From contig JAQGDQ010000554.1 of NCBI GenBank assembly GCA_030141605.1, forward strand, positions 1 to 64,000: a stretch of DNA of 64,000 nt, given 5' to 3'. The notes under the pieces were generated by a model that worked only from the letters and a program-made list of their open reading frames with translations, ran no database searches and was not told where the DNA came from. Source of the stretch: Tubiluchus corallicola (taxonomy: Eukaryota; Animalia; Priapulida). This document shows, one piece after another, positions 23,826 to 64,000 of this stretch (position 1 is its first letter; every line of letters starts with the position of its first letter). The translations under genes were made by a program, and so were the position numbers.

Positions 23826-24674
23826 TGTCAGTTTATTTTATCTTATTTATTATTATTATTATTATTTATATAATCTTATGATTGTACTACTTAAAGTTAC
23901 TAGCCAAACAGGACTATGACACTTGACAGGTACTACAACTAACCAAAGCGGCAGTGCAGTGTGCACAGAGGAATTCACGGAAAGTTAAGAGCTTATTTCT
24001 GCTATGGTCCTGAAAAATAAAAATCCCGTGCTGCCACCCTCTCAGTCCAGCAAATGTCAAGAAAATAAGTGACATCAAATCTACAATACATAGATCGCAG
24101 AACGTCAATCAGTTAGTGGGGGTCCACCTCGCAATGGCCTATCAGATGCTGTATTTTCGCTCTAATTGCTTTTCTATTGATGAGGCCTGGAACTTACTCC
24201 CAACCTCAAGGGTATTTGCACGTGAAGCACACAATAATATACAGAGAATCTGTGTGTTCATGATTGTTTTTACTTATTAAATTCATTAGATAGCAGTGAA
24301 AGAGAGTATAGAATGGTGAAGTGTTGTTCTTAGGGCACATGTATCGTGGATGCTCGGTACCCAGAAGGGTTAGAAGTCCAGCTCATTTGTTTCCCCAATC
24401 CAAAAATATGCACTTAGACAAGTATCACCAATGGATCGAAGCATGCGGGAGCCACAAGAACAACTCAACCCATTCAAAATTAATAAACATCCTGCTCTCT
24501 GCTCAAAGTTTCCTAATGTTTTACTGTTACTACTGGCTACATGTAGAAATGTGGCGTGCTAATGCTACTAATGAAGCCACACATTTTTTATTCAAAATTA
24601 AATACATTGTCCATCATTCCAAATTATGTTTCAATTGGAATTTATATTTTTTTCAGATTACTAAAGCTATTTTA

Positions 24675-26579
24675 ATGGATGAAGGTGCAAGTGTGTGCTG
24701 GGTGCCAGACTCCTTACTATTACATATCTTCAAGAACTTACAAGCTAAGCATCTTCTTAATGCTGGTCAAGTGTGTAAGCGTTGGTATATTGTTAGCCTA
24801 GACGAACTGTTATGGAAAGATCTATTCTACAGAAATTTCCACATAAGTCGCAATGTTGGCATGGCACCAGGAAAGTTTTCCTGGTACAGCGAATACAAGC
24901 GTTTATATTACCGTACACCTTTAATTCAGACCGAGGTGTTGAAAGCTCATACAGATCAAGTACTTCACGTATCATTTTCACGTAATGGCAAATATTTTGC
25001 CACGAGTTCTAAAGATGGTTTTGTGAAATTGTGGAATGCGGTCACCCCCAGTACAGTTAAGTACAGCCAAGACATGAAAACGTTCTGCTGGAAGTATACA
25101 CAGTTTTCCCAGTTTAACGAAAGTGACACAAAACTACTTGTATCAGGCGTCTACTTTGGTTCACATAGCACTTCAGGAGAAATAGCTGTTTTTAGCATCG
25201 AAGAGGGTGAGTTAGTTTTGCAGTGCAGAGTCATTAATAGACCGTATGACATATTTGGTACGTGGTATAATGACGAGTATTTATTTTCTGGTAATTTACA
25301 CTGGATGGGACATCTCGTTTCATGCTCTGCATTGTGGATAAACAGGGCTTCCCAAGTAACAGAGTCAGAGTGGGAGTGTGTTGTAAAACGAGTTTATAAA
25401 TTTTGTAATGTGAATGCTAGTTCTATCAGGACAGTAATGGTTGCCACCCCTTCCCAGTTCTCTACTTCGGATGTTGACGTAACTGAAGAAGATCTGACAG
25501 AGCAGGCAACAGCCGAAAAGGCATGTTCTAATAAAGTGAGACTCAAAGAAACAAGGGTGTTCGTAAATGGGATGTATCGAACGCGGCTTGTCCCAGAAGA
25601 TGTCAGTACAAATAATTCGTTGAGAGAAAGTCGATCCACTAGTCAGCTGAGTGCCAAAATTGAATATGATGAACATTATAGGAATGCAGAAAGTCGTCTG
25701 TCCTACACTTTGGATGAAGAAGAAGAAAGTACTGCTCTAACGAGTGATGCCGCTGCCACTTTTTCTACAGCTGAATCTTCTTCTTCTCTACAAACAGGAA
25801 GCATCGATTTTGAATCAGAAGATGACCTTGATGAACCACCATTTAGGCGATTCTCTGGTGAGCTGCAGCTGCTCGATCAACGGGATAAACTACTAATTTT
25901 TACAACCGGTTCTAAGACTTATACGCCCCACCAGATAGGAATAAAGGTCATCCAAAATCTGGCCATGGAGAAAACGCATGCTGCAAGACCCCCAAGACTA
26001 ACAGATCTAGGCGTTCGGATGCTACCTAATGATGGAGAAGAACATGGAGGACATCACTTGCCAGGTAACTTTGACCTGGAAAATTTAGAACAATCTTTTG
26101 ATGATATTGATTACTTGATCGATCTAAATGGCCATATTATTGGAATGGGTCTTTCTCCAGATAACCGTTTTCTTTATGTAAATGTAAGGCCATGGCCGGA
26201 AGGATGCGAGATAGAGAATCCTTTGGATCCGCCCCCAATTGCACAAGAAATTGACATCCGCGTTATCGACTTGTTGACAATGCGGCAGGTTGGTACGATG
26301 CACAGATGTCATAAAGCGTATACGCCAAATAATGAATGCTTCTTCATCTTTCTTGATGTGTGCAAGGAGTATGTTGCTAGTGGAGCAGAAAATAAGAATG
26401 GGCACTTGTGGGACAGGCATTATGGCACGTGCATTGCAAAGTATCCTCATCAAGACGTAGTTAACTGTGTGGCATTCAACCCCGTGGACAATGAAATGTT
26501 AGTTACTGCTAGTGATGATAACACAGTCAAAGTCTGGCTGTCTCGACATCATGTGGCAAAGTTGAAGCGAAAGTCTTAA
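24675..26579 (+). CDS. FBXW5: F-box/WD repeat protein 5, 634 aa, single coding exon
   Basis: N-terminal F-box (PDSLLLHIF...GQVCKRW...DELLWK) and WD40 repeats (HTDQVLHVSFS..G.YFATSSKDG; H.DVVNCVAFNP.DNEMLVTASDD.TVKVW). FBXW5-type motifs: YTQFSQFN.SD, NRPYDIFG.W and PPPIAQEID. Acceptor ttttttcag ends at 24656, so the first 118 codons of ORF 24321 are probably not coding. Confidence 0.93.
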   Translation: MDEGASVCWVPDSLLLHIFKNLQAKHLLNAGQVCKRWYIVSLDELLWKDLFYRNFHISRNVGMAPGKFSWYSEYKRLYYRTPLIQTEVLKAHTDQVLHVSFSRNGKYFATSSKDGFVKLWNAVTPSTVKYSQDMKTFCWKYTQFSQFNESDTKLLVSGVYFGSHSTSGEIAVFSIEEGELVLQCRVINRPYDIFGTWYNDEYLFSGNLHWMGHLVSCSALWINRASQVTESEWECVVKRVYKFCNVNASSIRTVMVATPSQFSTSDVDVTEEDLTEQATAEKACSNKVRLKETRVFVNGMYRTRLVPEDVSTNNSLRESRSTSQLSAKIEYDEHYRNAESRLSYTLDEEEESTALTSDAAATFSTAESSSSLQTGSIDFESEDDLDEPPFRRFSGELQLLDQRDKLLIFTTGSKTYTPHQIGIKVIQNLAMEKTHAARPPRLTDLGVRMLPNDGEEHGGHHLPGNFDLENLEQSFDDIDYLIDLNGHIIGMGLSPDNRFLYVNVRPWPEGCEIENPLDPPPIAQEIDIRVIDLLTMRQVGTMHRCHKAYTPNNECFFIFLDVCKEYVASGAENKNGHLWDRHYGTCIAKYPHQDVVNCVAFNPVDNEMLVTASDDNTVKVWLSRHHVAKLKRKS

Positions 26580-47200: not shown

Positions 47201-47642
47201 TGGTTGGGTATATGATAGTGCCATTATAACACAAGGTAGGTAAGTCCTCGAAATCGGCCGAAAAGTTGATATCGTTATGTGGATGGCCCCTAGCTGGTAT
47301 GTTAGTGATGGCTATGTGGTCTCAAGGGTCTTGCAGATTCAGCTTATGTTTGTGTGAATTATCTCACAGCCAATTTCCAAAGTTTAGCAAAACAGACTTT
47401 ATTTAATTGGATAAGTGAGCATGTAACCCCAGGAAATGATAAAGTTAATGGAAACATCTAACACAGGAAAATGCTTTTATTTGATTTAGGCTCATGGCGC
47501 AGCCGGAGTAAGTCAAGACTACCCATTAGCGTTTCTTTGGACCTGGGCACGGGCACTGCGATTAGCAGATGGCCCAGACGAGGTGCACCGAAGAGCAATT
47601 GCACGTATAGAAATTGGTAGATACATGAAATCGATGCTTTAA
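29270..47642 (+). CDS. ACAD10: Acyl-CoA dehydrogenase family member 10 (HAD hydrolase + APH-like kinase + ACAD domains), about 1045 aa, 19 coding exons
   Basis: Exons 29270-29483, 29686-29834, 31720-31914, 32466-32624, 33419-33578, 34577-34671, 35035-35150, 35732-35913, 37205-37355, 38636-38781, 39576-39749, 41804-41950, 42896-43068, 43184-43324, 44647-44875, 45407-45565, 45986-46158, 46590-46811 and 47490-47642 (sum 3138 nt, in frame). Motifs: [13 protein letters not shown] and FLDD; kinase [16 protein letters not shown] and [10 protein letters not shown]; [33 protein letters not shown] and [11 protein letters not shown]. Confidence 0.95.
30910..31592. mobile_element. Tc1/mariner-like MITE, older copy of the family at 59850-60796
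   Basis: TA-flanked ends (TA|CA..gcttaatagactca ... ggcacctgctg|TA). Shares gtatagaagtatgagtcat and gtgaaggaaaaatattgagtcaat with the 59.8-60.8 kb element. Confidence 0.7.
36221..36890. repeat. Minisatellite, 19 tandem copies of a ~35-bp unit, in an ACAD10 intron
   Basis: Unit AATGAGAACTACTTGAAATGTTGCTCAACTTTTTT, head to tail, varying mainly in T-run length. No unique spacers. Confidence 0.97.
46868..47290. mobile_element. PIF/Harbinger-like MITE (423 bp) in the last ACAD10 intron
   Basis: TIRs GGTGCCATCCACAT / ATGTGGATGGCCCC, flanked by TAA and TAG. Confidence 0.7.
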
Positions 47643-48160
47643 GATGTGACAATGACAAATTTGCATAATGGTAGCAGCTAATGTGTACAAGGATTATGGC
47701 TCTAAGTTTCTCAGAAAATGATGAAAATCACGTTCATGAATGAACTCTAGATCAGATAACATGGTGTGGTTGAAAAGTGGGCCTTATTTGATAAGTTTTT
47801 AATTAGAAAAATGATGAAATGATATAAAATGTCACTGATATATGGGGTTATGGGCACATTTAAATCAACTCTCCCGCAGTGTTTGTCTGTCATAAGAAAG
47901 GGTTATTTATATCCAACTGATTAAATGCATTTGAGATGGATACTGGTAGTTTTTGTGGGCTGATAAGGGCCATTTTTATCAATGTTTAAGATACATCAAG
48001 ATTTTTTATCATCCTTTAACTGATTCAGCCATCAGTTATATGTATAGTAAATGCATAGAGCTAATAATGTTCAAAATTTCAATGCCACATTGAGATTCAA
48101 TTTTGTAGTGTCAGCTAGTCACTAATGTTATAAGCTCATGTATCCAATATGACCCAATAT

Positions 48161-48176
48161 TTTATTGGTTAATAAA
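48161..48176. promoter_or_regulatory. Back-to-back candidate poly(A) signals (TTTATT-ggtt-AATAAA) between convergent ACAD10 and UreF
   Basis: AATAAA on + at 48171-48176 and on - at 48166-48161. Further minus-strand AATAAA hexamers lie near 48275 and 48327. Confidence 0.4.
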
Positions 48177-48545
48177 ATGTTGATGAAATGTTACTACTGT
48201 AGAGAGTAAAATTTTTCTTTATAATTATACTTGGGAAGAGCAAAATAATGGGATAGGCTGAAAAGATATCTATTTTTATTTATGGTTGATAAAGAAATAA
48301 TTGTTGTCTGTAAATACGAGTCAAATTTTATTGATCATTAAACATATTTGTTTCTGAAGGTTATACAGCTGTCTTCTTTCTTATTACAAAACAGAACTGA
48401 CATCAGTGAAAAATATAGAAATTAGATTACACGTAGATTTGTGTCAACAGATTCAGCAAATTCTCTTAAAGAAAACTGTAGTGAAAGAATACCTCCCTGC
48501 TTTAATTTGTGACTAAAACTTTTTAATGTCAAAGCAAGAACAAGT

Positions 48546-49259
48546 TCAAGAGTAAAAAAGTCTAGCAAACAAAGTATCATGCATATTCTGAACAATATCA
48601 ACAATGGGACAACTAATATGAGCATTTTCAACAGATGATTCGGCATTTCGAGCAATGATACCAGGAATTAGCTGCTGAAGACTGAATAACAGCCTCTGTG
48701 CCTGAAAGCAGCCTATGTGACCTAGGCGCACAGCACCTGACGAAATGGTGCGCAGTACGCCAAACATAAACACGTTCAACACAGCTGACATTTCAAGCTT
48801 TAAATGAGCACAAATGCATCCCAGAACAACAGGGTAGTGTCCAAACATTTTATTGTCATCTATCAGTTCCTGGAGATCGGCAATAAATGAGACGTGAAAG
48901 ATTTCTCTGCTTGTGTTCACCAGAGCTCGACCCTGCCTGACACTCGCCCTGTTTGCAACATGGTTGGTGACACTGGCTTGGTACAAAGCATCAAGTTCCA
49001 TCAGTCGGTCTTCAGACGACGCATTTTTGTAGGCGTCTTGAAGAAACGGCATGCTCAATGAGCCGGCGTTTTCAAGACACGATATAGCAAACTTCTTGAA
49101 ATCCTCGTCACTGTTGTCAACGATGTGCAACTTCACAGCGGCTTCATACCCGATGCTGTGACTGAAACTTCCGGTTGGAAATGCACTGTCAGACAACTGC
49201 AGCAAAAGTAATTCTGCCGACACTGTGTTGTCCGATTCTGTTGAGCAGGCCTTTGCCAT
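48546..49259 (-). CDS. ureF: Urease accessory protein UreF, 237 aa, intronless
   Basis: N-terminal LLQLSDSAFPTGSFSHS.G.EAA, central RAS.RQGRAL, GH.PVV.G and S.AVRLG.IG...AQ, and C-terminal H..L..RLFYS are UreF hallmarks. Start context is ACCATGG. Confidence 0.95.
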   Translation of the reverse strand: MAKACSTESDNTVSAELLLLQLSDSAFPTGSFSHSIGYEAAVKLHIVDNSDEDFKKFAISCLENAGSLSMPFLQDAYKNASSEDRLMELDALYQASVTNHVANRASVRQGRALVNTSREIFHVSFIADLQELIDDNKMFGHYPVVLGCICAHLKLEMSAVLNVFMFGVLRTISSGAVRLGHIGCFQAQRLLFSLQQLIPGIIARNAESSVENAHISCPIVDIVQNMHDTLFARLFYS

Positions 49260-49273
49260 GGTATCTGACGATA

Positions 49274-52200
49274 TCAGGACTTATCCGATGAGGTGGCACC
49301 GCCTTTATCTGAACTACCCGAATGACCAACTACTTTAAAAGCTTTTGATTCGGCACCAGCTCTGACTAACAACTCGGACTCTATGTTTTTGTTTATAGCT
49401 TTTTGCAAATTCTGGAAAATAAGTACAAACAGTAATAAGAAAATATAAATAATGCACTTACAATGATTAAAACTTCATTTTAGGTGATATCAGTACTAAA
49501 AATTTGAAAATCACTTTCACAATGCAGAAATCATTTGATAACAATAATTAAACTTAATAGACTGTAAATCCTATTTAAGTTTAATAGGATGAAAAGCTAT
49601 GTAGGTTTGTTACATACATTTTTTGTACAAGATATTGTTTAGATCAATATTTAAAAGCCAAGCTTCAGATTTTTTGTTATTTCTGAGGTTTCCAATCACT
49701 TGTGCTTGAAAGTTCTAGTACACCACATATACTTCAGTGAAACTGATTAGCTAAACAGAATAGCAAAATGAGGAATACAATTGAAATGAAAAATACATGT
49801 ATATATAAAAAGCAGTGCAAAAAGAGTTTGAATGAATTATATAAACAACCTTACTTTTTTCAGTGTTTCAGATTGAACTTTTTTAGCCTTTTTTGGAGCA
49901 ATATATTTTGCACCTATAAAAAAGAATAATACTACAGTTTGTGTAAGCTACAATGGAAATTGTGGACCCCATAAATTTCTTTGAATTTCAGCATTTTGTG
50001 TATTTCATGTGGGCTTGACCAGCAGTTTGTCCAACGCACTCAAGTTCACATTCGCAACAAAAAATTAAGGGTTATGTGGAAGTTTGCAATTAAGACTCAG
50101 TACAAGTTTATCTCATTTGGGATGCACAGAACAAGTCTGACTTGTTATTTTTACCATTATCAAAAGCATAGTGGCTATTACCATTGCGGCTACGTCAATG
50201 TCGCACTGAGCATTTTGTAGGTTTGGAGATTCTTGTGGACTTGTTAGTCACCGCCATAATTTTTTAAAATGAATAAATCCTTTTCAGAATTAGAACCAAG
50301 GAAAAAAGAAAGAAAGCACAAAGCATTTCAAACTACTACTGTAATTCTGTTCTAAGTGGACAAAAGAAAAAGAAAAATCGTAATGCATTACTAAATTAAT
50401 TTTCTAGGTGAGTTTTTCATTTATATTATTAGCACAAAAAGGATGTCATACGAAAAAGGATACAAGCAATCGCACAGAAAAAACTGTAGCACAGCAGATT
50501 AAAATACAAAGGAGAAACATAGATGCATAAAATCCCTAAGTAGTCGTAGTCACAAAACAGAGTGGGACACAACAGAAACTAACGAAACGTTTAATATAGG
50601 CGGTGGTTTATACGTACAAAAAGTTAACTGGTTACATAGAAGATAAACAGAATGCAACCATGGAGTTCAGAGTGAATAACAAAAGATAAAAACTGCACAA
50701 AGTGATTAATCAGAAGAAATGAGTAAACACACTAGGCTACAGGCAATAGCCAAAAGATCATGGCATCAAGTTAACAAATTACTTGAAAAAGTTGACTATG
50801 GATAATGTAAAAAGTTAACTAAATTTAAGCGGTCCACCTAACACAGACTACGCTAGCAATTTCAGGCATTAGTTAAATCTTATCAGTATTCATAGTTAAG
50901 TTTAACTCAAGTTTGTCCACTTTCTAAGACGTTAGCTGCATTCAAAGTGCTAGTAACGCCTGATTGTTTTCAGTGGATGCCTTAAACTTAATTAAGTTTA
51001 AATAATATCTATAGATGACGGGTTTTAAAAATAATTTGTTAACTTAATATCGCAGGAGTTTTGAACTTTTGGCTCTACCCATATTGTGTTCATACCTTTC
51101 TTCTAATTAATTACTTTAGACAGTTTTGTTTTCTCCTTCAGGGTAGCTTGTATTGCATCCGTCCTCTCTGTTGATTAATCATTTCATAGAGTTTTATTCT
51201 TTTGCCATTCACTCTCCACTCCATGGGCTGTATTCTGTTTATCTTCTACCTAAACTTTGGAACTTTTTCTTGTATACAAGGCATGTCCCTGTTAGACAGT
51301 TTCTGTCATGTTCCACTCTGATTTGTGACTGCTGCTACTAACTGCACATTTGTGCACTTTTCCTCCGTGTCTTTATTTGCAGTACTTCTGCATTTTTTCT
51401 GCATTCTTGTATCCTTTTTAGTGAGATATCATTTTTACATATTAATAATATATAAACAGAAAACTTCCACAAAAGATTATTTAACGGCTCTAGTAATTTC
51501 TTGTGATTTTCTCTGAACTTTTTGTCCTCGTTTGTTCACCTCAACTACAGTGATACTAGGGATGCACCAACGATTTTTTTCTCCGAATATCAGTATAAAA
51601 ATCCGGTCCGGCGAACTTCGGTTATAATCACTGAACGTTCAGTGAACCTTCAGTATACCGAAGTTACTTTTTTAACAGCTATCACATTCCGTAAAAATTA
51701 TATTAAAAGAACCGAAAATTTACCTACAATGCTTAGAAAAATTTATCCGAAAAAAGCTGATAGTAAACAGCAGTCATGGCCCTACTGCCGACATTTGCTT
51801 TCTGTATGATAACTAGAAGAATGCAATGCACCATCAGCACACAATTCGTGTCAATTCAGACGTAGCGTGGCAGTGCAGTAATTGTTTATACACGACGTAT
51901 TGGCTTTTCCACTTCGAAATCAATCAATGAGAACTCGAGCTAGTAAACAATTATACTATTGCAGTTTTGCCAAAATATAGTTTTTATTGATTACACAAAA
52001 TAGTTTGAATACCTTTTGAAAGAATTAGGGCTGCTTATAAAATATTTAATACTTTAATACATAACATTAAACAAACAGATTTACTAATCAAAACAATTTT
52101 TCACAACTTACCAATCATCACTAACTTAAAATGATAAAACATTACAGAGTTTATAATTCATTTAAGCTTTGGTTTGGTGGCACCTGGTTTTGGTTCGGAT

Positions 52201-53720
52201 GGTGAAAATGTGCCGTCGGTGCACCATTAAGTGATACTTTGAAGGCAGTGACTAGAGGTACAGATCCGTATCCAGAACTGCAACAACTAAAAATACGGAT
52301 CCATGTCTAAAAAGCATTCACTAGAAAATACGGAGGATCCGTACTGGGAACCATATTGACGAGAAATACGGTTCGCCATCAGAGAGGGGCAATATATCAT
52401 TTTCTTGTTTATCCGCAACCTCAAAATCCACAATTGTAAATATCCGCATCCGCTAGACCCGCAGATTGAGTGAAATTGAATATCCTCATAGATATCTATA
52501 TTACGTAATCCCTAGATAGGACACGCGGTGAATGCACGCAACACTCCGTCATATTACGGTGAGCGACACATCACCTGAGCAGTGATAAATCACAACTCAA
52601 ACTAAGGAAAATTACAGTTAGTAGGTTATCACATTCACAACACTCTATAGAAAAAAAATACTGGCTGGTAGGTCATCATATTACAACACTCTAAGAAATT
52701 CATAACACACTAAGATTTAAACTCTTGCTAACTGGCCTACTACACATCAAAATACTAAAGTTTTTTGTAACAAATAAACAAAATAAAGCAAACAAACTAT
52801 TAATTGGTAGCTTCTGCAACACCAGCAAAATGGTACCGAAGAAAAACGGTATGGTTACAGGCTGTATAATGCCATATCACCATTTTCATGAAGTAGGCAT
52901 GTACTTTTCAACGATGTGCAGGGCACATGGTCAAACCCCGTATGTCATAAAAATTGTCAAAATCCGTATGTCTTGTAAATGTCACAAAGCGCGGATCCGT
53001 ATTTGTTGCAAAAATAGCTACGAAGACGGATCCGTATCGCAGGAAAGACAAGTACGGATCCGTACCTCTAGCCACTGCCTACTTTGAAATGTTGCACATG
53101 TTCTTTCTTTTTTCTTTGTCTTTTAATTGTGGGATTTTTTTGTTCATTGTTTATTTATTTACTTTATCATATTTATTATTTTCAAAATAGGGTTTTAAAT
53201 GAGGTGACAAAAGACACAGAAGTGCCCAAAATTACTTTCAAATATAATTATTGCTGCTGCCATAATTTGATTATTGTCGCCTGTGCCTCGGTGTTCGGTT
53301 GCAGTGGCTAACTCAAAATTTTAGTTTTTCGTGCATTGTCGGCTTTTCCTGCAATATCGGGAAAGGGCATGTGGCAGAAAGATGTGTGTGAAAGGCTGAG
53401 TGGGGAACGGCACACAGGTTTTTGATGATTGTCTTCATTTCAGGTTATTTGCTATCAATTTGATTTTGGATTAGCTCGTTGTATAATAGCTGGAATAGTA
53501 AATAATTTGTTCCAAGGTCATTTGTTCTTGTGGTCGATCTGATGTTGAATTCGATCCGTTCAAACCACCGTTTCAAAATTTCTGCTACGTTGAGAGCTAT
53601 AGCAGTTACCATTATTAATGTCTCACCTTTCTTTGGACCTAAGACTTTTTTGTGAACAGATGACTTCTTTTTGCTGCCTTCCGGCGGTTTAATTTTCGTC
53701 TTCAATTTACCTTGTGGCAT
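49274..53720 (-). CDS. C19orf53: C19orf53 / Leydig cell tumor 10 kDa protein homologue (UPF0390, DUF2462), 96 aa, 3 exons
   Basis: Exons 53720-53627 (MPQGKLK...LGPKKG, donor GTGAGA), 49913-49855 (AKYIAPKKAKKVQSETLKK; tttatag / GTAAGG) and 49411-49274 (NLQKAINKNIESELLVRAG...DKS*; ttttccag). Phases 1 and 0 are compatible. MxQG, GPKKG..IAPKK and I.K.IE match the family. Confidence 0.9.
51557..52229. mobile_element. Non-autonomous hAT-like element (673 bp)
   Basis: TIRs TAGGGATGCACC / GGTGCACCATTA. Perfect 8-bp TSD AGTGATAC at 51549-51556 and 52230-52237. Confidence 0.85.
52244..53079. mobile_element. Non-autonomous Mutator(MULE)-like element (836 bp)
   Basis: 27-bp TIRs GGCAGTG(A/G)CTAGAGGTAC(A/G)GATCCGTA with multiple subterminal ACGGATCCGT palindromes. 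Perfect 9-bp TSD TACTTTGAA at 52235-52243 and 53080-53088. Confidence 0.85.
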
Positions 53721-53978
53721 AGTCTGCTTGGGTTTGTCAAAGACAGCGAATTCTTAACAGACCTTAGTAGGTCTAATCTAAAACTAGTAAAAGCTTTTAG
53801 AACTCAAAGTCAAAATAAAGCGAGCCTAATGATCTTGCAAATTTCATTCAACAGGTAAACGGAAAGATGAACAATCAGTATTAACAAAAATGAAAGCCTA
53901 ATTTGTTGTTAACAATAGCAATGTTAGTTTTGAAATGTTTAATTAGTAATACTAAATTTTGTAAAGTTCAGTAATACT

Positions 53979-54899
53979 GTGTGTTGGGAGCCGAGTGGAC
54001 CACTGAGCCAAGTAGACCAATTGGTCTACTTGGGCTAGCCCAAGTAGGACACTAGAGACAGGTCGCGAATTGAGTCGTTAAGTGTACTGACCCCGTCCGT
54101 TGTGCTTGTTTATGTAATAATAATAATTAAAAACGTTAGTACGCGTTGAATAATTTATTATACATCTAATAAAATAAAAGAATTTTATTCTGAGCTGGTA
54201 GAACGGACAATATTAAATTTGGTTTCGATATTAATGTTGTTGAAGTGAAAAAAACCCACTTTTTTGCGAATTCAACATTTGTTTAAGGTATATCATTTTG
54301 GATTTTCTCTCACTTCACAAACAGGTGATCCGTTTCACTACCTCTTGGGCAAATAATTGTTTTCTTATAAGTAAACGTTCTAGCGATCTATGTGTCCTAC
54401 ATGGGCTAGCGAGCCATGTAGGACAGTGCCCTACATGTTACAATACTACTGATAATATTAAAACTAATTATCCTTGCTTTTCTTAAATGTTAAAAATTAC
54501 TTTTTGGTGTTGTGAAGGCTTAGCAGCATCTGTCTCATTTTTAAATTTGCAATTATTTCTGTAATAACTGTGTGCAGAATTTCTCTCTTTAAAGCATTAG
54601 ATACTAGGTTTAATGTTATGATATATTAATGGAGTTAATCATAATGATGAAATTATTGTAAGAAATGCATTTGTAAATTGCCAAGGAATATCCATGTCTA
54701 AAAGAAATTTTGTTTTATGCTTTATTATGTCATAACAATACTTATAAACAATGGTAATATAAACTGGAAACAAGTTTTGCCAGAGCAAGTTTCTCGACAA
54801 AAATCGTTAGTGTCCTACTTGGGCTGCCCATGTAGGACACTACTTTTAGCGCATCAAGTGGTCTACTTGGCGCAGTGGTCCACTCGGCTCCCAACACTG
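53979..54899. mobile_element. hAT-like MITE upstream of C19orf53
   Basis: ~40-bp TIRs gtgttgggagccgagtggaccactg.gccaagtagacca at both ends, with internal palindromic ctacttgggct.gccca.gtagga repeats. TSD not recognisable. Confidence 0.75.
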
Positions 54900-55032
54900 T
54901 GGCAGTGTAACACATGCCCGTGTGAATGTGTGTGCTGCCATCTAGGTCTTGTTAGTTTAAATTACTAACTTGAGTCATGTATCAGAGACTATAATATCCG
55001 CCGTTGGAATAATAAAAACAATAATAGCAACA

Positions 55033-55033
<1 letters not shown>

Positions 55034-55116
<83 letters not shown>
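55034..55116. repeat. (TAA)n microsatellite
   Basis: Direct reading, about 27 units. Confidence 0.97.
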
Positions 55117-60796: not shown

Positions 60797-62165
60797 TATT
60801 TATGTAATGTTCTCTTATACCCAAATTTCATGCTGATAATTGGAAAACATTCAACACAATATATTAATTAGAATCAAATATATGAGTAAAGGTGTACACA
60901 AATATCAAAAGATTTATTTGAGTAGCCAAATGTATTAAAATTTGAAATTATAGTATTTTTGCATACTTTGCTGCAATACACTAGCTGGTTTATAGGCTGT
61001 TAAACTGAGTATATATTTGCACATTGGGTAATTTGTAGCTTTTCTGCTGATTCATGTTGGCAAACAGCACAAATGAAAATATTTGTTATCAATAGACACT
61101 TTTTGAATTACATTAATATTGCCCTTTAAATTCATTCAAGGTGTGTATTACTGAATTTTTGAATTACACACCATAAAAATGGTAAAAACAAGAACTGAAA
61201 TTTTTAAGATTAGCAGGGCTAATTGAATTGGATATGCTGTCTGCTGCAGACTTATGCGATATATTTTAGAGGCGAATAATTTTTTTTAAATTTTTTCAGT
61301 GACTTCACTGGCTACTCAGTCAAGAGGTGTCTTCCAGATTTTATTAACTTCCAATTGATTGTGATGGCATAGTTCAGGGTTAAAAAATTACCATGTCTGG
61401 ATACTCAGGACAATCAGTTTTTTCACTGATAAGAAGAGTTTTAAGTGTTAATTTTAAGTCGGGTAGACTGTCAGCCCTGAGCAAATAATATTGCTATAAA
61501 CAAAGGCAATAATGATATTAAGACTGAGTTATTTTAAAAATTATGGCTATGCATACCACTTTTAATTGCTGTGTTAAAAGATAAGAAAGTCAGTAGAAAC
61601 ATTATACTGCATGTGTGATATTGCAGGCACACAAACTGCAAAGTTAGGTGCTGAATGTTGATTGTATACATTAATTTATAGAGTTTCTGTGATCACCTTG
61701 ATATTTGGTAAAAGCCTAACAAGTTTTATTGTCACAATAAAATGGTAGCATGAGCACCAGAGAAAAGGGAAGGTCAATAAAATTAAAGTCAAGTACATTT
61801 TCGTTACAAAACATTAAAATAAATGAGAAATGGTGACTAAAATTAAGAAAAACTGATGAAATCAATTCATAAATTTTGTTCATTTTTTATTTTATTTTTA
61901 GCTAATTTCATCCCGATGTTGTTAATATTTATGCCTCACTTTTGATGATAAAAAAACAGCACGAGATAAATGGCAATTGCTTAGAATATAACTAGCAATA
62001 TTCAACCAATACAACGATGTTAAAATGATAGATATCATTGAGAACAGTGTAAACAAGTTTTTTAAATTTTATTTGCTTCTATGTTCTTAGCATCTTCTTT
62101 ATTTTGATAAAATGTTGCTGAGTTGTCTTTTTTCTGTTTATAGATGATGCAATACTAGCAGCATT

Positions 62166-64000
62166 ATGGTTGTGAAGACTGCAGGAGGAATCATGGAGAA
62201 TAATGAGCTAGAGGAACTCAAACAGCTCATAAACCTTTGGAATGCAAACAGATATGACATGTTTGAAATTAGCGCTCCGGATGAGACCGGTGAATTCCAT
62301 GGTGTCATGAGGTTCTATTTCCAGGAGCATGGAGCAAAAGTGGCCACCAAATGCATTCGAGTTGGCAGTACAGCCACCACCAATGATGTCATAGCTACAC
62401 TTATTGAAAAATTCCGTCCAGATATGCGAATGTTAGATCTGCCTGAGTACTCGCTGTATGAAGTCCACGTGAATGGAGAAGAGAGAAAGTTGGGACCATT
62501 GGAGCAACCTCTTTTTGTTCAGCTGAATTGGGGAGTTGATGATAGAGAAGGCAGATTTTTGTTGAAGACAGAAGGTGATGTGAAAATACCTGCCAGGGAA
62601 CAAACAGATTTGAACAGAAAGTTGTCAAAACGAGAATCAAAGAAGAAAAAGAAACGTGAAAAAGAAGCAGAGAAGAAGAATGAAAAAGACGACGGGCATG
62701 TAGCTGAAAAGCTATATTCTGAGTTGCCAGAAACTAGCTTCACACGAAGTATTTCTAACCCAGAAGCAGTGATGCGTCGTCGTCGACAACAAAAGCTTGA
62801 AAAAAAGTTGCAAGAGTACCGTAGTCAGGATGGGGGCCCTGACACTGGTGGTACATTGAAGATTTATGGTGAATGCTTAGACCCAAAAGTGCCTTATAAA
62901 ACATTACTGTTGTCTATTACTGATCGAGCTTATGGCATAGTGAGACAAACCCTTGATAAATATGGATTTGAGAAAGAAGATGCTGATAATTATTGTTTGT
63001 ATGAGGTACATATACCACAAGATGGTGAATTTCATGGAACCACGTCAAAAGAGAAAGTGTTAGATGATGATGAAGCCCCTCTTGCTATTTTAATGCATCC
63101 ATCCCCTACTAGGGATCAAATTATTTTTCAGATAAGAAAACGGCCTGCCGATCACCCCCCTAGAAGGCGGAGGAAGCAGCAGAAGCCAACAGTCCATGCT
63201 GATGCTACTGATAGTGCACGACTGGATTCACCACAGAATCCAAAGAATACTTTACCATTTTTGCTGCAACTGAATCCTGATGGCTCTGATATAGTAGGCT
63301 CTGTTCCTGTAAGACATAAGCTTTATCCTAATGTAACTGAAGTTGGAAGTGAACGTCCCAATACTAGCGAACAGTGCTTGCAGTTGTTTGGCCCAGATAT
63401 CCATCCTCGGCATTGTTTAATTGCATGTACTGGAGGCATAGTAACAGTGACTCCATCTAATCCGGATGCAGAGACTTGGATAAATAACCAGCGCATTCAA
63501 GAAACAACAATGTTACAAGACGAAATGGTTGTGCGATTTGGTCGTATGCACACTTTTCTTTTTTGCGATTCTTCTTCAAGAGAAGTGTCTGAGGATCAGG
63601 GAGAAGCAGGTAATAAAACAACGTCCGAGCAGCCAAACTATGAGACAACCTTTGATGTAGATGGCCACATCCAAACATCTGTTTCTAGTACACAGTTAAA
63701 TCGTATGGCAGATATGTCAGATGTTATGCGGAATCCTTCTTTGAGAATAGAAGTACTTCCAGCAACACTGGAATTTAGAGAAAATGCAGAAAGTCAACTT
63801 TTGACCCACATAATTGCTCATGCAGATGTGCATCAGTTGCAGTTTAAATTAGCGCCAACCTACACGCTATATATGGCTATACGTTATCGAGCCTCACGTC
63901 AGTACCGTCCTGATGCATCACCTATGGAACGTGCACAAAGGCTAACAGCTTTTGCAAACAGAATTGCTAACATTATTGGAGAAACTGTCCAAGCTGTACA
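62166..64000 (+). CDS. AFDN: Afadin (AF-6/canoe) N-terminal part: RA1, RA2, FHA and the region preceding the DIL domain; open to the window edge
   Basis: WNANRYDMFEIS...EFHGVMRFYFQ, TKCIRV...LIEKFRPDMRML, QLNW..DDREGRFLLK, LPETSFTRSISNPEAVMRRRRQQKLEKKL, GGTLKIYG..L.P.VPYKTLLLS, FHA QLFGPDIHPRHC and FKLAPTYTLYM. An in-frame TGA at 62145 fixes the start at ATG 62166 or 62193. Absent from the ORF track because there is no stop inside the window. Confidence 0.95.
   Translation, partial: MVVKTAGGIMENNELEELKQLINLWNANRYDMFEISAPDETGEFHGVMRFYFQEHGAKVATKCIRVGSTATTNDVIATLIEKFRPDMRMLDLPEYSLYEVHVNGEERKLGPLEQPLFVQLNWGVDDREGRFLLKTEGDVKIPAREQTDLNRKLSKRESKKKKKREKEAEKKNEKDDGHVAEKLYSELPETSFTRSISNPEAVMRRRRQQKLEKKLQEYRSQDGGPDTGGTLKIYGECLDPKVPYKTLLLSITDRAYGIVRQTLDKYGFEKEDADNYCLYEVHIPQDGEFHGTTSKEKVLDDDEAPLAILMHPSPTRDQIIFQIRKRPADHPPRRRRKQQKPTVHADATDSARLDSPQNPKNTLPFLLQLNPDGSDIVGSVPVRHKLYPNVTEVGSERPNTSEQCLQLFGPDIHPRHCLIACTGGIVTVTPSNPDAETWINNQRIQETTMLQDEMVVRFGRMHTFLFCDSSSREVSEDQGEAGNKTTSEQPNYETTFDVDGHIQTSVSSTQLNRMADMSDVMRNPSLRIEVLPATLEFRENAESQLLTHIIAHADVHQLQFKLAPTYTLYMAIRYRASRQYRPDASPMERAQRLTAFANRIANIIGETVQAV

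What the first reader, a model, noticed from the sequence alone, without database searches (positions are those of the whole stretch)
48546..53720. Probable bicistronic animal mRNA: C19orf53 homologue followed 14 nt later by urease accessory protein UreF
Seen: the spliced 3-exon C19orf53 ORF ends with TGA at 49276-49274 and the intact 237-aa UreF ORF starts at 49259. The two are separated only by TATCGTCAGATACC, inside the same terminal exon. That leaves no room for a poly(A) site or promoter between them. The ORFs are in different frames and a TAA in the UreF frame lies 21 nt upstream of its ATG, so they are not a read-through or frameshift fusion. Known: animal mRNAs are nearly always monocistronic, with few exceptions such as MOCS2 and SNURF-SNRPN. 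Inference: UreF is translated as a second cistron of the transcript of a small conserved gene. I am not aware of this pairing having been described.
Basis: partly seen in the sequence, partly recalled or inferred. Interest (0 to 1): 0.9.

Follow-up and report, generated by a model that had tools for sequence, protein, structure and literature searches.

The report
C19orf53-UreF two-protein animal mRNA
In this animal genome the gene for a small conserved protein (C19orf53) stops 14 bases before an intact urease-helper gene (UreF), and both proteins are likely made from one messenger RNA, a known but uncommon layout that the other animals checked do not share.

Summary
Observation confirmed. A three-exon, 96-codon C19orf53/DUF2462 ORF ends 14 nt before an intronless 237-codon UreF ORF in another frame. 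Four stops in the UreF frame of exon 3 rule out readthrough or frameshift fusion. New indirect support for one spliced transcript: the closest database relatives of both proteins (89% and 90% identical) each lie on a Logan contig of exactly 1938 nt, and that C19orf53 is continuous across both introns. I could not read the contig, and no RNA reads were available. The anatomy fits leaky scanning: no ATG in 302 nt between the starts, a better context at UreF, no usable splice acceptor or TURBS motif. The ATG-free state is weak evidence, because 40 of 101 family members also lack internal Met. The pairing is lineage-restricted: the genes lie on different contigs in amphioxus, Ptychodera, Littorina and Liolophura, and two coral-type UreF loci have no C19orf53 upstream. 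Verdict: a new gene pair of a known kind, not found in print.

The parts
53721..53850 (-). Putative promoter and 5' leader of the unit. Cap site unknown; nearest upstream ATG at 53847; high-copy repeat DNA begins about 53800-54000.
   Evidence: Inferred from position. Searches (upstream ATG; summed depth 266-2217 from 53777 on, against 2-8 over the UreF CDS, exon 3 and exon 1).
53627..53720 (-). C19orf53/DUF2462 exon 1 (94 nt). Start context has A at -3 and C at +4.
   Evidence: colinear with P0121.
49914..53626 (-). Intron 1, 3713 nt, GT..AG, holds repeats.
49855..49913 (-). C19orf53 exon 2 (59 nt).
   Evidence: colinear with P0121.
49412..49854 (-). Intron 2, 443 nt, GT..AG, six ATGs (last at 49478), strong T-rich acceptor.
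49274..49411 (-). C19orf53 exon 3, coding part with TGA. No ATG in any frame; four stops in the UreF frame.
49281..49283 (-). TAA in the UreF frame, 21 nt before the UreF ATG.
49260..49273 (-). 14-nt inter-ORF spacer. Holds an AG (49265) without a T-rich tract.
48546..49259 (-). UreF, intronless, 237 aa. Start context has A at -3 and G at +4. Full length against solved UreF; member of the animal UreF clade.
   Evidence: (residues 5-236, E 7e-10).
48849..48854 (-). AATAAA inside the UreF CDS with a GT-rich stretch downstream; possible internal poly(A) signal that would give a C19orf53-only mRNA.
   Evidence: use not tested.
48161..48527 (-). Likely 3' UTR with candidate poly(A) signals at 48527, 48506 (ATTAAA) and 48332, 48280, 48166 (AATAAA).
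   Evidence: use not tested.

Best explanation
The spliced C19orf53 ORF ends 14 nt before the UreF ORF, and the two are likely carried on one mRNA from which UreF is likely made by leaky scanning past the C19orf53 start codon. Most ribosomes would start at the first ATG (A at -3, C at +4) and make the small Lys-rich protein. A minority would scan on, meet no ATG for 302 nt, and start at the better UreF context (A at -3, G at +4). The likely origin is that the intronless UreF gene came to lie in the 3' UTR of C19orf53 in this lineage and uses its promoter. A protein naturally poor in Met, Trp and Cys makes a carrier ORF that scanning ribosomes can cross. Shown: the anatomy, both ORFs intact and conserved, the genes unlinked in other animals. 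Indirect: one spliced contig with both ORFs in a relative. Inferred: translation of UreF from that mRNA, the mechanism, the origin.
For: (1) Anatomy. (2) The best relative of UreF (P0001, 214 of 237 identical) and the best relative of C19orf53 (P0121, 85 of 96 identical, continuous across both introns) each lie on one Logan contig of 1938 nt. (3) No ATG in any frame between the two starts (5.3 expected from base composition, 0.3% of shuffles; 0 of 1336 overlapping 302-nt windows in four other coding stretches of the window are ATG-free); P0121 also has no internal Met. (4) UreF begins MA, ME, MA in the three close relatives, so G at +4 is kept, while ORF1 begins MP in both. (5) The three AGs near the UreF start have a T fraction of 0.20-0.33 against 0.53-0.80 for nine acceptors in the window, seven of them picked by inspection. 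(6) No TGGGA motif. (7) Short ORF1, short spacer and ATG depletion are the features of leaky-scanning bicistrons in green algae (PMC11291117). (8) UreF is under purifying selection: 4 of 4 listed coding differences in a related 160-nt contig are synonymous third positions.
Against: (1) The 1938-nt contig was not read: order, spacer and RNA origin are inferred, and an assembled contig can merge overlapping transcripts. Across all 160 pairs up to about 0.3 chance matches are expected. (2) The second close UreF relative (P0002, 1303-nt contig) had no matching C19orf53. (3) The ATG-free state is not shown to be selected: 40 of 101 full-length family members lack internal Met, and synonymous recoding of this protein gives no out-of-frame ATG in 83% of draws, combined about 0.33; codon shuffling gives 0.15. 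(4) ORF1 has A at -3, so its context is only moderately leaky, and an MP start is not associated with Met-free members (11 of 28 against 29 of 73, Fisher p 1.0). (5) The cap site is unknown. (6) The taxon is unresolved, so spliced-leader trans-splicing cannot be excluded. (7) The FlyBase authors note that most fly dicistrons do not meet the requirements of scanning.
Confidence: 0.6

Rival explanations
1. UreF has its own capped mRNA from a start in intron 2 or exon 3. C19orf53 mRNA overlaps it and ends at the AATAAA inside UreF, or carries UreF as an untranslated 3' UTR.
For: Intron 2 is 443 nt with no ATG after 49478, so a late start would give an ATG-free leader. An AATAAA with GT-rich downstream sequence lies at 48854. 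Many fly dicistrons have monocistronic isoforms (114 of 159). Overlapping transcripts could merge into one contig.
Against: The spliced junctions and UreF appear to sit on one unbroken contig. The internal AATAAA lies in conserved codons and may be incidental. No evidence of a second promoter was seen, though none could be tested.
Confidence: 0.17
2. The unit is an operon resolved by spliced-leader trans-splicing, either at the AG in the spacer or at the strong exon 3 acceptor, which would give UreF a 152-nt ATG-free leader.
For: Ciona operons lack intercistronic DNA and usually lack AATAAA, and unresolved precursors occur among ESTs (PMC1488885). Trans-splicing can use cis-acceptors (PMC11155486). 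Hydra placed a single-exon gene in an operon this way (PMC3273482). A short leader could be clipped from a contig as a tip (inference). The taxon is unknown.
Against: The spacer AG has no T-rich tract (0.33 against 0.53-0.80) and would leave ORF1 a 9-nt 3' UTR; the Hydra case has 417 nt with a T-rich tract. The exon 3 acceptor is paired with a consensus donor. No Rfam match in the window, which says little.
Confidence: 0.12
3. One bicistronic mRNA, but UreF is made by reinitiation after the C19orf53 stop or by internal entry.
For: The stop-to-start distance is only 14 nt. PMC11291117 cites higher reinitiation with very short spacers.
Against: Reinitiation falls with upstream ORF length and 96 codons is long. 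No TGGGA motif (the motif is recalled). The leader is coding sequence with no sign of a dedicated structure (not tested against shuffles).
Confidence: 0.08
4. UreF is made as a spliced fusion: exon 1 joined to the AG at 49280 or 49265, or exon 2 joined to the AG at 49251, each in frame with UreF.
For: All three joins are in frame.
Against: All three AGs are poor acceptors. The 49251 AG is not kept in P0001 or P0002, where that residue is Asn. One AG in three is in frame by chance. None of the 120 listed UreF relatives of 130-415 aa carries DUF2462. Skipping exon 2 alone puts the first ATG in the UreF frame but meets four stops.
Confidence: 0.03

Closest known systems
Drosophila dicistronic loci with a small conserved ORF before an unrelated gene (e.g. 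Snapin/CG9960 18 nt, CG42496/Ppcdc 18 nt, CG42374/CG9666 11 nt; PMC4528330 passages and File S1 part 1 of 6; PMC2276209 passages)
   Same: Two unrelated ORFs, a spacer of 10-20 nt, one small conserved protein.
   Different: Another gene pair and animal group. The fly loci rest on cDNA and RNA-seq; this one rests on genome anatomy and a contig-length match. Whether the fly DUF2462 gene is in that list was not determined.
Green-algal nuclear bicistrons translated by leaky scanning (PMC11291117, passages and section 6)
   Same: ORF1 of 291 nt (the median in Auxenochlorella is 291), short spacer, no ATG before ORF2, better start context at ORF2.
   Different: Animal. No mutational test, cap site unknown, and the ATG depletion is explained largely by the family's composition.
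MOCS2A/MOCS2B bicistronic mRNA (passages in PMC4528330 and PMC2276209; the leaky-scanning mechanism is recalled)
   Same: A small ORF precedes a larger one on one mRNA; the downstream product serves metalloenzyme maturation.
   Different: The MOCS2 products are subunits of one enzyme and the pair is conserved across distant eukaryotes. C19orf53 (Hero11, PMC7067378 passages) has no known link to urease, and this pair is lineage-restricted.
Spliced-leader operons of Ciona and Hydra (PMC1488885, PMC3273482, passages)
   Same: Co-oriented genes with little or no DNA between them; in Hydra a single-exon gene rides on a host promoter.
   Different: Those are resolved into monocistronic mRNAs at a T-rich acceptor; no such acceptor lies between the two ORFs here.
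Plant UreF 5' leaders (PMC3130180 passages, citing Cao et al. 2010, not read)
   Same: Intronless UreF ORF whose translation is tuned by upstream AUGs; excess UreF/UreD is reported to hinder bacterial urease activation.
   Different: In plants a leader intron removes the upstream AUGs; here the upstream AUG opens a full conserved protein.

Membership tests
Bicistronic mRNA (two proteins from one mature transcript) | Two intact, separately conserved ORFs on one strand, close together, not fused | tested here: met
Bicistronic mRNA (two proteins from one mature transcript) | One mature molecule carries both complete ORFs | tested here: inconclusive
   Best relatives of both proteins on contigs of 1938 nt, C19orf53 continuous across the introns; contig not read, no single-molecule data.
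Bicistronic mRNA (two proteins from one mature transcript) | The downstream protein is translated from that molecule | not testable with these tools
   Needs ribosome profiling or reporters.
Leaky-scanning bicistron | No ATG between the first start and the second | tested here: met
   0 in 302 nt; weak as a sign of selection, about 0.33 under a family-aware null.
Leaky-scanning bicistron | First start context weaker than the second | tested here: inconclusive
   A-3/C+4 against A-3/G+4, kept in relatives at +4; judged by the recalled Kozak rule, no organism-specific consensus built.
Leaky-scanning bicistron | Short 5' UTR before ORF1 | not testable with these tools
   Cap site unknown; the nearest upstream ATG is 127 nt away.
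Leaky-scanning bicistron | ORF2 output falls when the ORF1 context is strengthened | not testable with these tools
   Bench test as in PMC11291117.
Spliced-leader operon | Unpaired T-rich splice acceptor between the cistrons | tested here: not met
   T fraction 0.20-0.33 at three candidate AGs against 0.53-0.80 at nine acceptors. Use of the paired exon 3 acceptor is not excluded.
Spliced-leader operon | The organism has spliced leaders and UreF mRNA bears one | not testable with these tools
   Taxon unresolved; no reads.
UreF (PF01730) | Pfam score above cut-off, full length, conserved N-terminal and C-terminal motifs | tested here: met
   106 bits against 23.3; aligns over residues 5-236 with solved UreF; motifs kept.
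C19orf53 / DUF2462 (PF09495) | Small Lys-rich protein matching the family profile | tested here: met
   P0121 carries PF09495, ESM Atlas score 0.95 to DUF2462 clusters, all three exons found by profile.
Deeply conserved animal bicistrons (MOCS2 type) | The pair is linked across phyla | tested here: not met
   Different contigs in 4 of 4 genera where both genes were found; no DUF2462 upstream in 2 of 2 coral-type loci.

The most novel reading that the evidence does not exclude
This is a datable birth of an obligate animal bicistron: UreF lost its own promoter, moved into the 3' UTR of the abundant, Met-free C19orf53 mRNA, and is now dosed by ribosome leak at the low level that urease activation favours. 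C19orf53 may be a recurrent carrier ORF, since Met-free members of its sister clade sit on 1.2-1.7 kb contigs long enough for a second ORF.
Probability: 0.3. Interest if true: 0.62.

Novelty: new member of a known kind. Interest (0 to 1): 0.42.

Why it matters
Animal bicistronic mRNAs are well catalogued only in Drosophila and a few human loci, and how they arise is rarely traceable. Here both partners stand alone in amphioxus, a hemichordate, two molluscs and probably corals, so the joined state is likely derived and can be dated and tested with a simple reporter. It also flags an annotation trap: one-ORF-per-transcript pipelines would drop either C19orf53 or UreF. It would add a translational control point to animal urease maturation, for which my searches found no paper.

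Tried and rejected
Sequencing runs: no RNA holder listed. X1, of unknown kind, covered the stretch in short contigs with no splice joint listed. X2, guessed to be RNA, gave 4-5 short contigs under 90% alike, none on the C19orf53 exons or the junction. Neither bears on expression. No whole genome is held. Scans with a C19orf53 alignment found no relative in prokaryote genomes or viral contigs. Bacterial contamination or recent transfer was rejected: the 21 animal UreF proteins form one side of a fully supported branch among 120, and the window's protein lies within the animal clade. Readthrough and frameshift fusion were rejected (four stops). Placing the taxon by trees failed. An MP start and a Met-free ORF are not associated. 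The bacterial promoter scan and Rfam were empty and are uninformative here. The ESM Atlas search with UreF did not complete. No earlier finding matched either protein by sequence or the pair by words.
Full report
Observation. On the minus strand, exons at 53720-53627, 49913-49855 and 49411 onward, joined at GT..AG introns of 3713 and 443 nt, give a 96-codon ORF ending at 49274. A 14-nt spacer follows, then a 237-codon ORF from 49259 to 48546 in frame +2. Exon 3 holds four stops in the UreF frame, the last 21 nt before the ATG, so readthrough and frameshift fusion are excluded. The second ORF is UreF (Pfam E 2.4e-30; residues 5-236 align with solved UreF). The first is C19orf53/DUF2462: a profile of 114 family members, built without the closest relative, finds all three exons, and a 96-aa database protein, P0121, matches the spliced product at 85 of 96 positions without gaps. 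Human C19orf53 is the abundant, disordered, heat-soluble protein Hero11 (PMC7067378, passages).

Both genes are animal and alive. The window holds ERGIC, TMEM117, F-box/WD40, acyl-CoA dehydrogenase and RA/FHA-domain coding stretches. Its UreF lies in an animal clade with 100/100 support, on its own branch with two unnamed relatives; 21 animal proteins form one side of a branch among 120. The phylum could not be placed. In a related 160-nt contig, the 4 listed differences inside the UreF CDS are all synonymous third positions (11 of its 14 differences were listed).

Is there one transcript? No RNA reads were available. The useful evidence is indirect. The best UreF relative, P0001 (214 of 237 identical), lies on a Logan contig of 1938 nt. 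The only hit for exon 3 among longer proteins, P0121, lies on a Logan contig of 1938 nt too, and it runs through both intron positions, so its template is spliced or retrocopied. This is the only exact match among 160 pairs of lengths (10 animal-type Logan UreF contigs by 16 DUF2462 contigs). The densest part of the length distribution is 0.002 per nt, so a match for a pair named in advance has a chance near 0.2%, while up to about 0.3 matches are expected over all pairs. The two ORFs and spacer need 1019 nt, which leaves 919 nt for UTRs. Limits: I could not read the contig; an assembled contig can merge overlapping transcripts; and the second close UreF relative (P0002, 1303 nt) had no C19orf53 partner.

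How would UreF be read? There is no ATG in any frame in the 302 nt between the starts, against 5.3 expected from composition; none of 1336 overlapping windows of that length in four other coding stretches is ATG-free. This meets the condition for leaky scanning but is weak proof of selection: 40 of 101 full-length family members have no internal Met (of 154 proteins examined), and synonymous recoding of this Lys-rich protein yields no out-of-frame ATG in 83% of draws. The family is thus pre-adapted as a carrier. The first start has A at -3 and C at +4; the UreF start has A at -3 and G at +4, and the +4 letters are kept in the relatives. Short ORF1, short spacer and ATG depletion are the marks of algal bicistrons shown by mutation to use leaky scanning (PMC11291117, passages and section 6). 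Reinitiation is less likely after 96 codons, and the recalled TURBS motif is absent. The three AGs near the UreF start are poor acceptors (T fraction 0.20-0.33 against 0.53-0.80 for nine acceptors, two confirmed by P0121 and seven picked by inspection), which speaks against a spliced fusion and against a spliced-leader site in the spacer.

What remains open. A cap site late in intron 2 or in exon 3 would give UreF its own ATG-free leader, and an AATAAA inside the UreF CDS could end a C19orf53-only mRNA. If the animal has spliced leaders, trans-splicing to the strong exon 3 acceptor would also give a monocistronic UreF mRNA; Ciona operons lack spacers and usually lack AATAAA (PMC1488885), Ciona can trans-splice at cis-acceptors (PMC11155486), and Hydra took up a single-exon gene into an operon (PMC3273482); passages only were read. 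I put leaky scanning on a shared mRNA at 0.6, an own start at 0.17, trans-splicing at 0.12, reinitiation or internal entry at 0.08 and a spliced fusion at 0.03.

Conservation. Of 20 C19orf53 representatives looked up, 4 came from genera whose UreF was found. In all 4 the two genes lie on contigs of different length: Branchiostoma (three species; B. lanceolatum 44.5 and 34.6 Mb against 20.4-20.6 Mb), Ptychodera flava (44.0 against 47.3 Mb), Littorina saxatilis (67.5 against 49.5 Mb) and Liolophura sinensis (36.6 against 37.3 Mb). Only the longest contig is shown per protein and unlisted paralogues are possible. Two coral-type UreF loci (L001, L002) have 359 and 110 nt upstream of their starts with no DUF2462 match. 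The pair is therefore restricted to this lineage and likely derived: the intronless UreF probably came to lie in the C19orf53 3' UTR (inference). A low, leak-set dose would suit UreF: PMC3130180 (passages) reports that excess UreD and UreF hinder bacterial urease activation and that plant UreF leaders tune translation through upstream AUGs. That benefit is untested here.

Novelty. The kind is known. Drosophila has 159 dicistronic pairs, 45 exclusively so (PMC4528330, passages), with 1-20 nt spacers in several (File S1, part 1 of 6); see also PMC2276209 (passages). Searches for this pair returned nothing on it in their listings: C19orf53 with bicistronic (2 unrelated papers), family names with di- or polycistronic, with uORF, UreF in animals and UreF with bicistronic terms. 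The library lacks most subscription papers. The remaining five parts of File S1 and the algal datasets were not read and could list a DUF2462 gene in a dicistron. Earlier notes of this scan describe similar unchecked cases in other genomes, which suggests the layout is not rare. Verdict: a real, probably bicistronic, lineage-restricted C19orf53-UreF unit; new member of a known kind; interest 0.42.

Noticed in passing
P0137, P0141 cluster, P0143, P0146: The sister clade of this C19orf53 (support 95/84) is almost all Met-free (6 of 7 rows with the window's and P0121), and four of its members lie on contigs of 1178-1677 nt, long for a 95-aa ORF. They may carry a second ORF; coral members also have 1.0-1.1 kb contigs, so long UTRs are an equal reading.
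   Followed up: partly
window 47490-47642 (+): Last exon of an ACAD10-like gene (HAD, APH and acyl-CoA dehydrogenase parts from about 31700 on) ends 900 nt from the UreF stop, tail to tail; plus-strand poly(A) signals at 47920, 48171 and 48337 suggest the 3' UTRs may overlap.
   Followed up: partly
window 62148-63998 (+): An open frame of at least 617 codons with two RA domains and an FHA domain, afadin-like by recall; unusually long without an intron for that region.
   Followed up: no
window 24312-26576 (+): A 755-codon open frame with an F-box and WD40 repeats in one stretch.
   Followed up: no
window 53777-54500: High-copy repeat DNA begins within about 100-300 nt upstream of the C19orf53 start, which leaves a short unique promoter; a long (TTA)n run lies near 55030-55115.
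   Followed up: no
window 53627 to 49411 (-): Skipping exon 2 would put the first ATG in the UreF frame and give a shorter upstream ORF that stops early in exon 3, a possible minor isoform better suited to reinitiation.
   Followed up: no
L001:360-1079 and L002:111-821: Coral-type UreF is also intronless, and both loci have the same unidentified ORF converging on it from the other strand.
   Followed up: no
P0297-P0302: Branchiostoma lanceolatum has several near-identical C19orf53 copies on two chromosomes.
   Followed up: no
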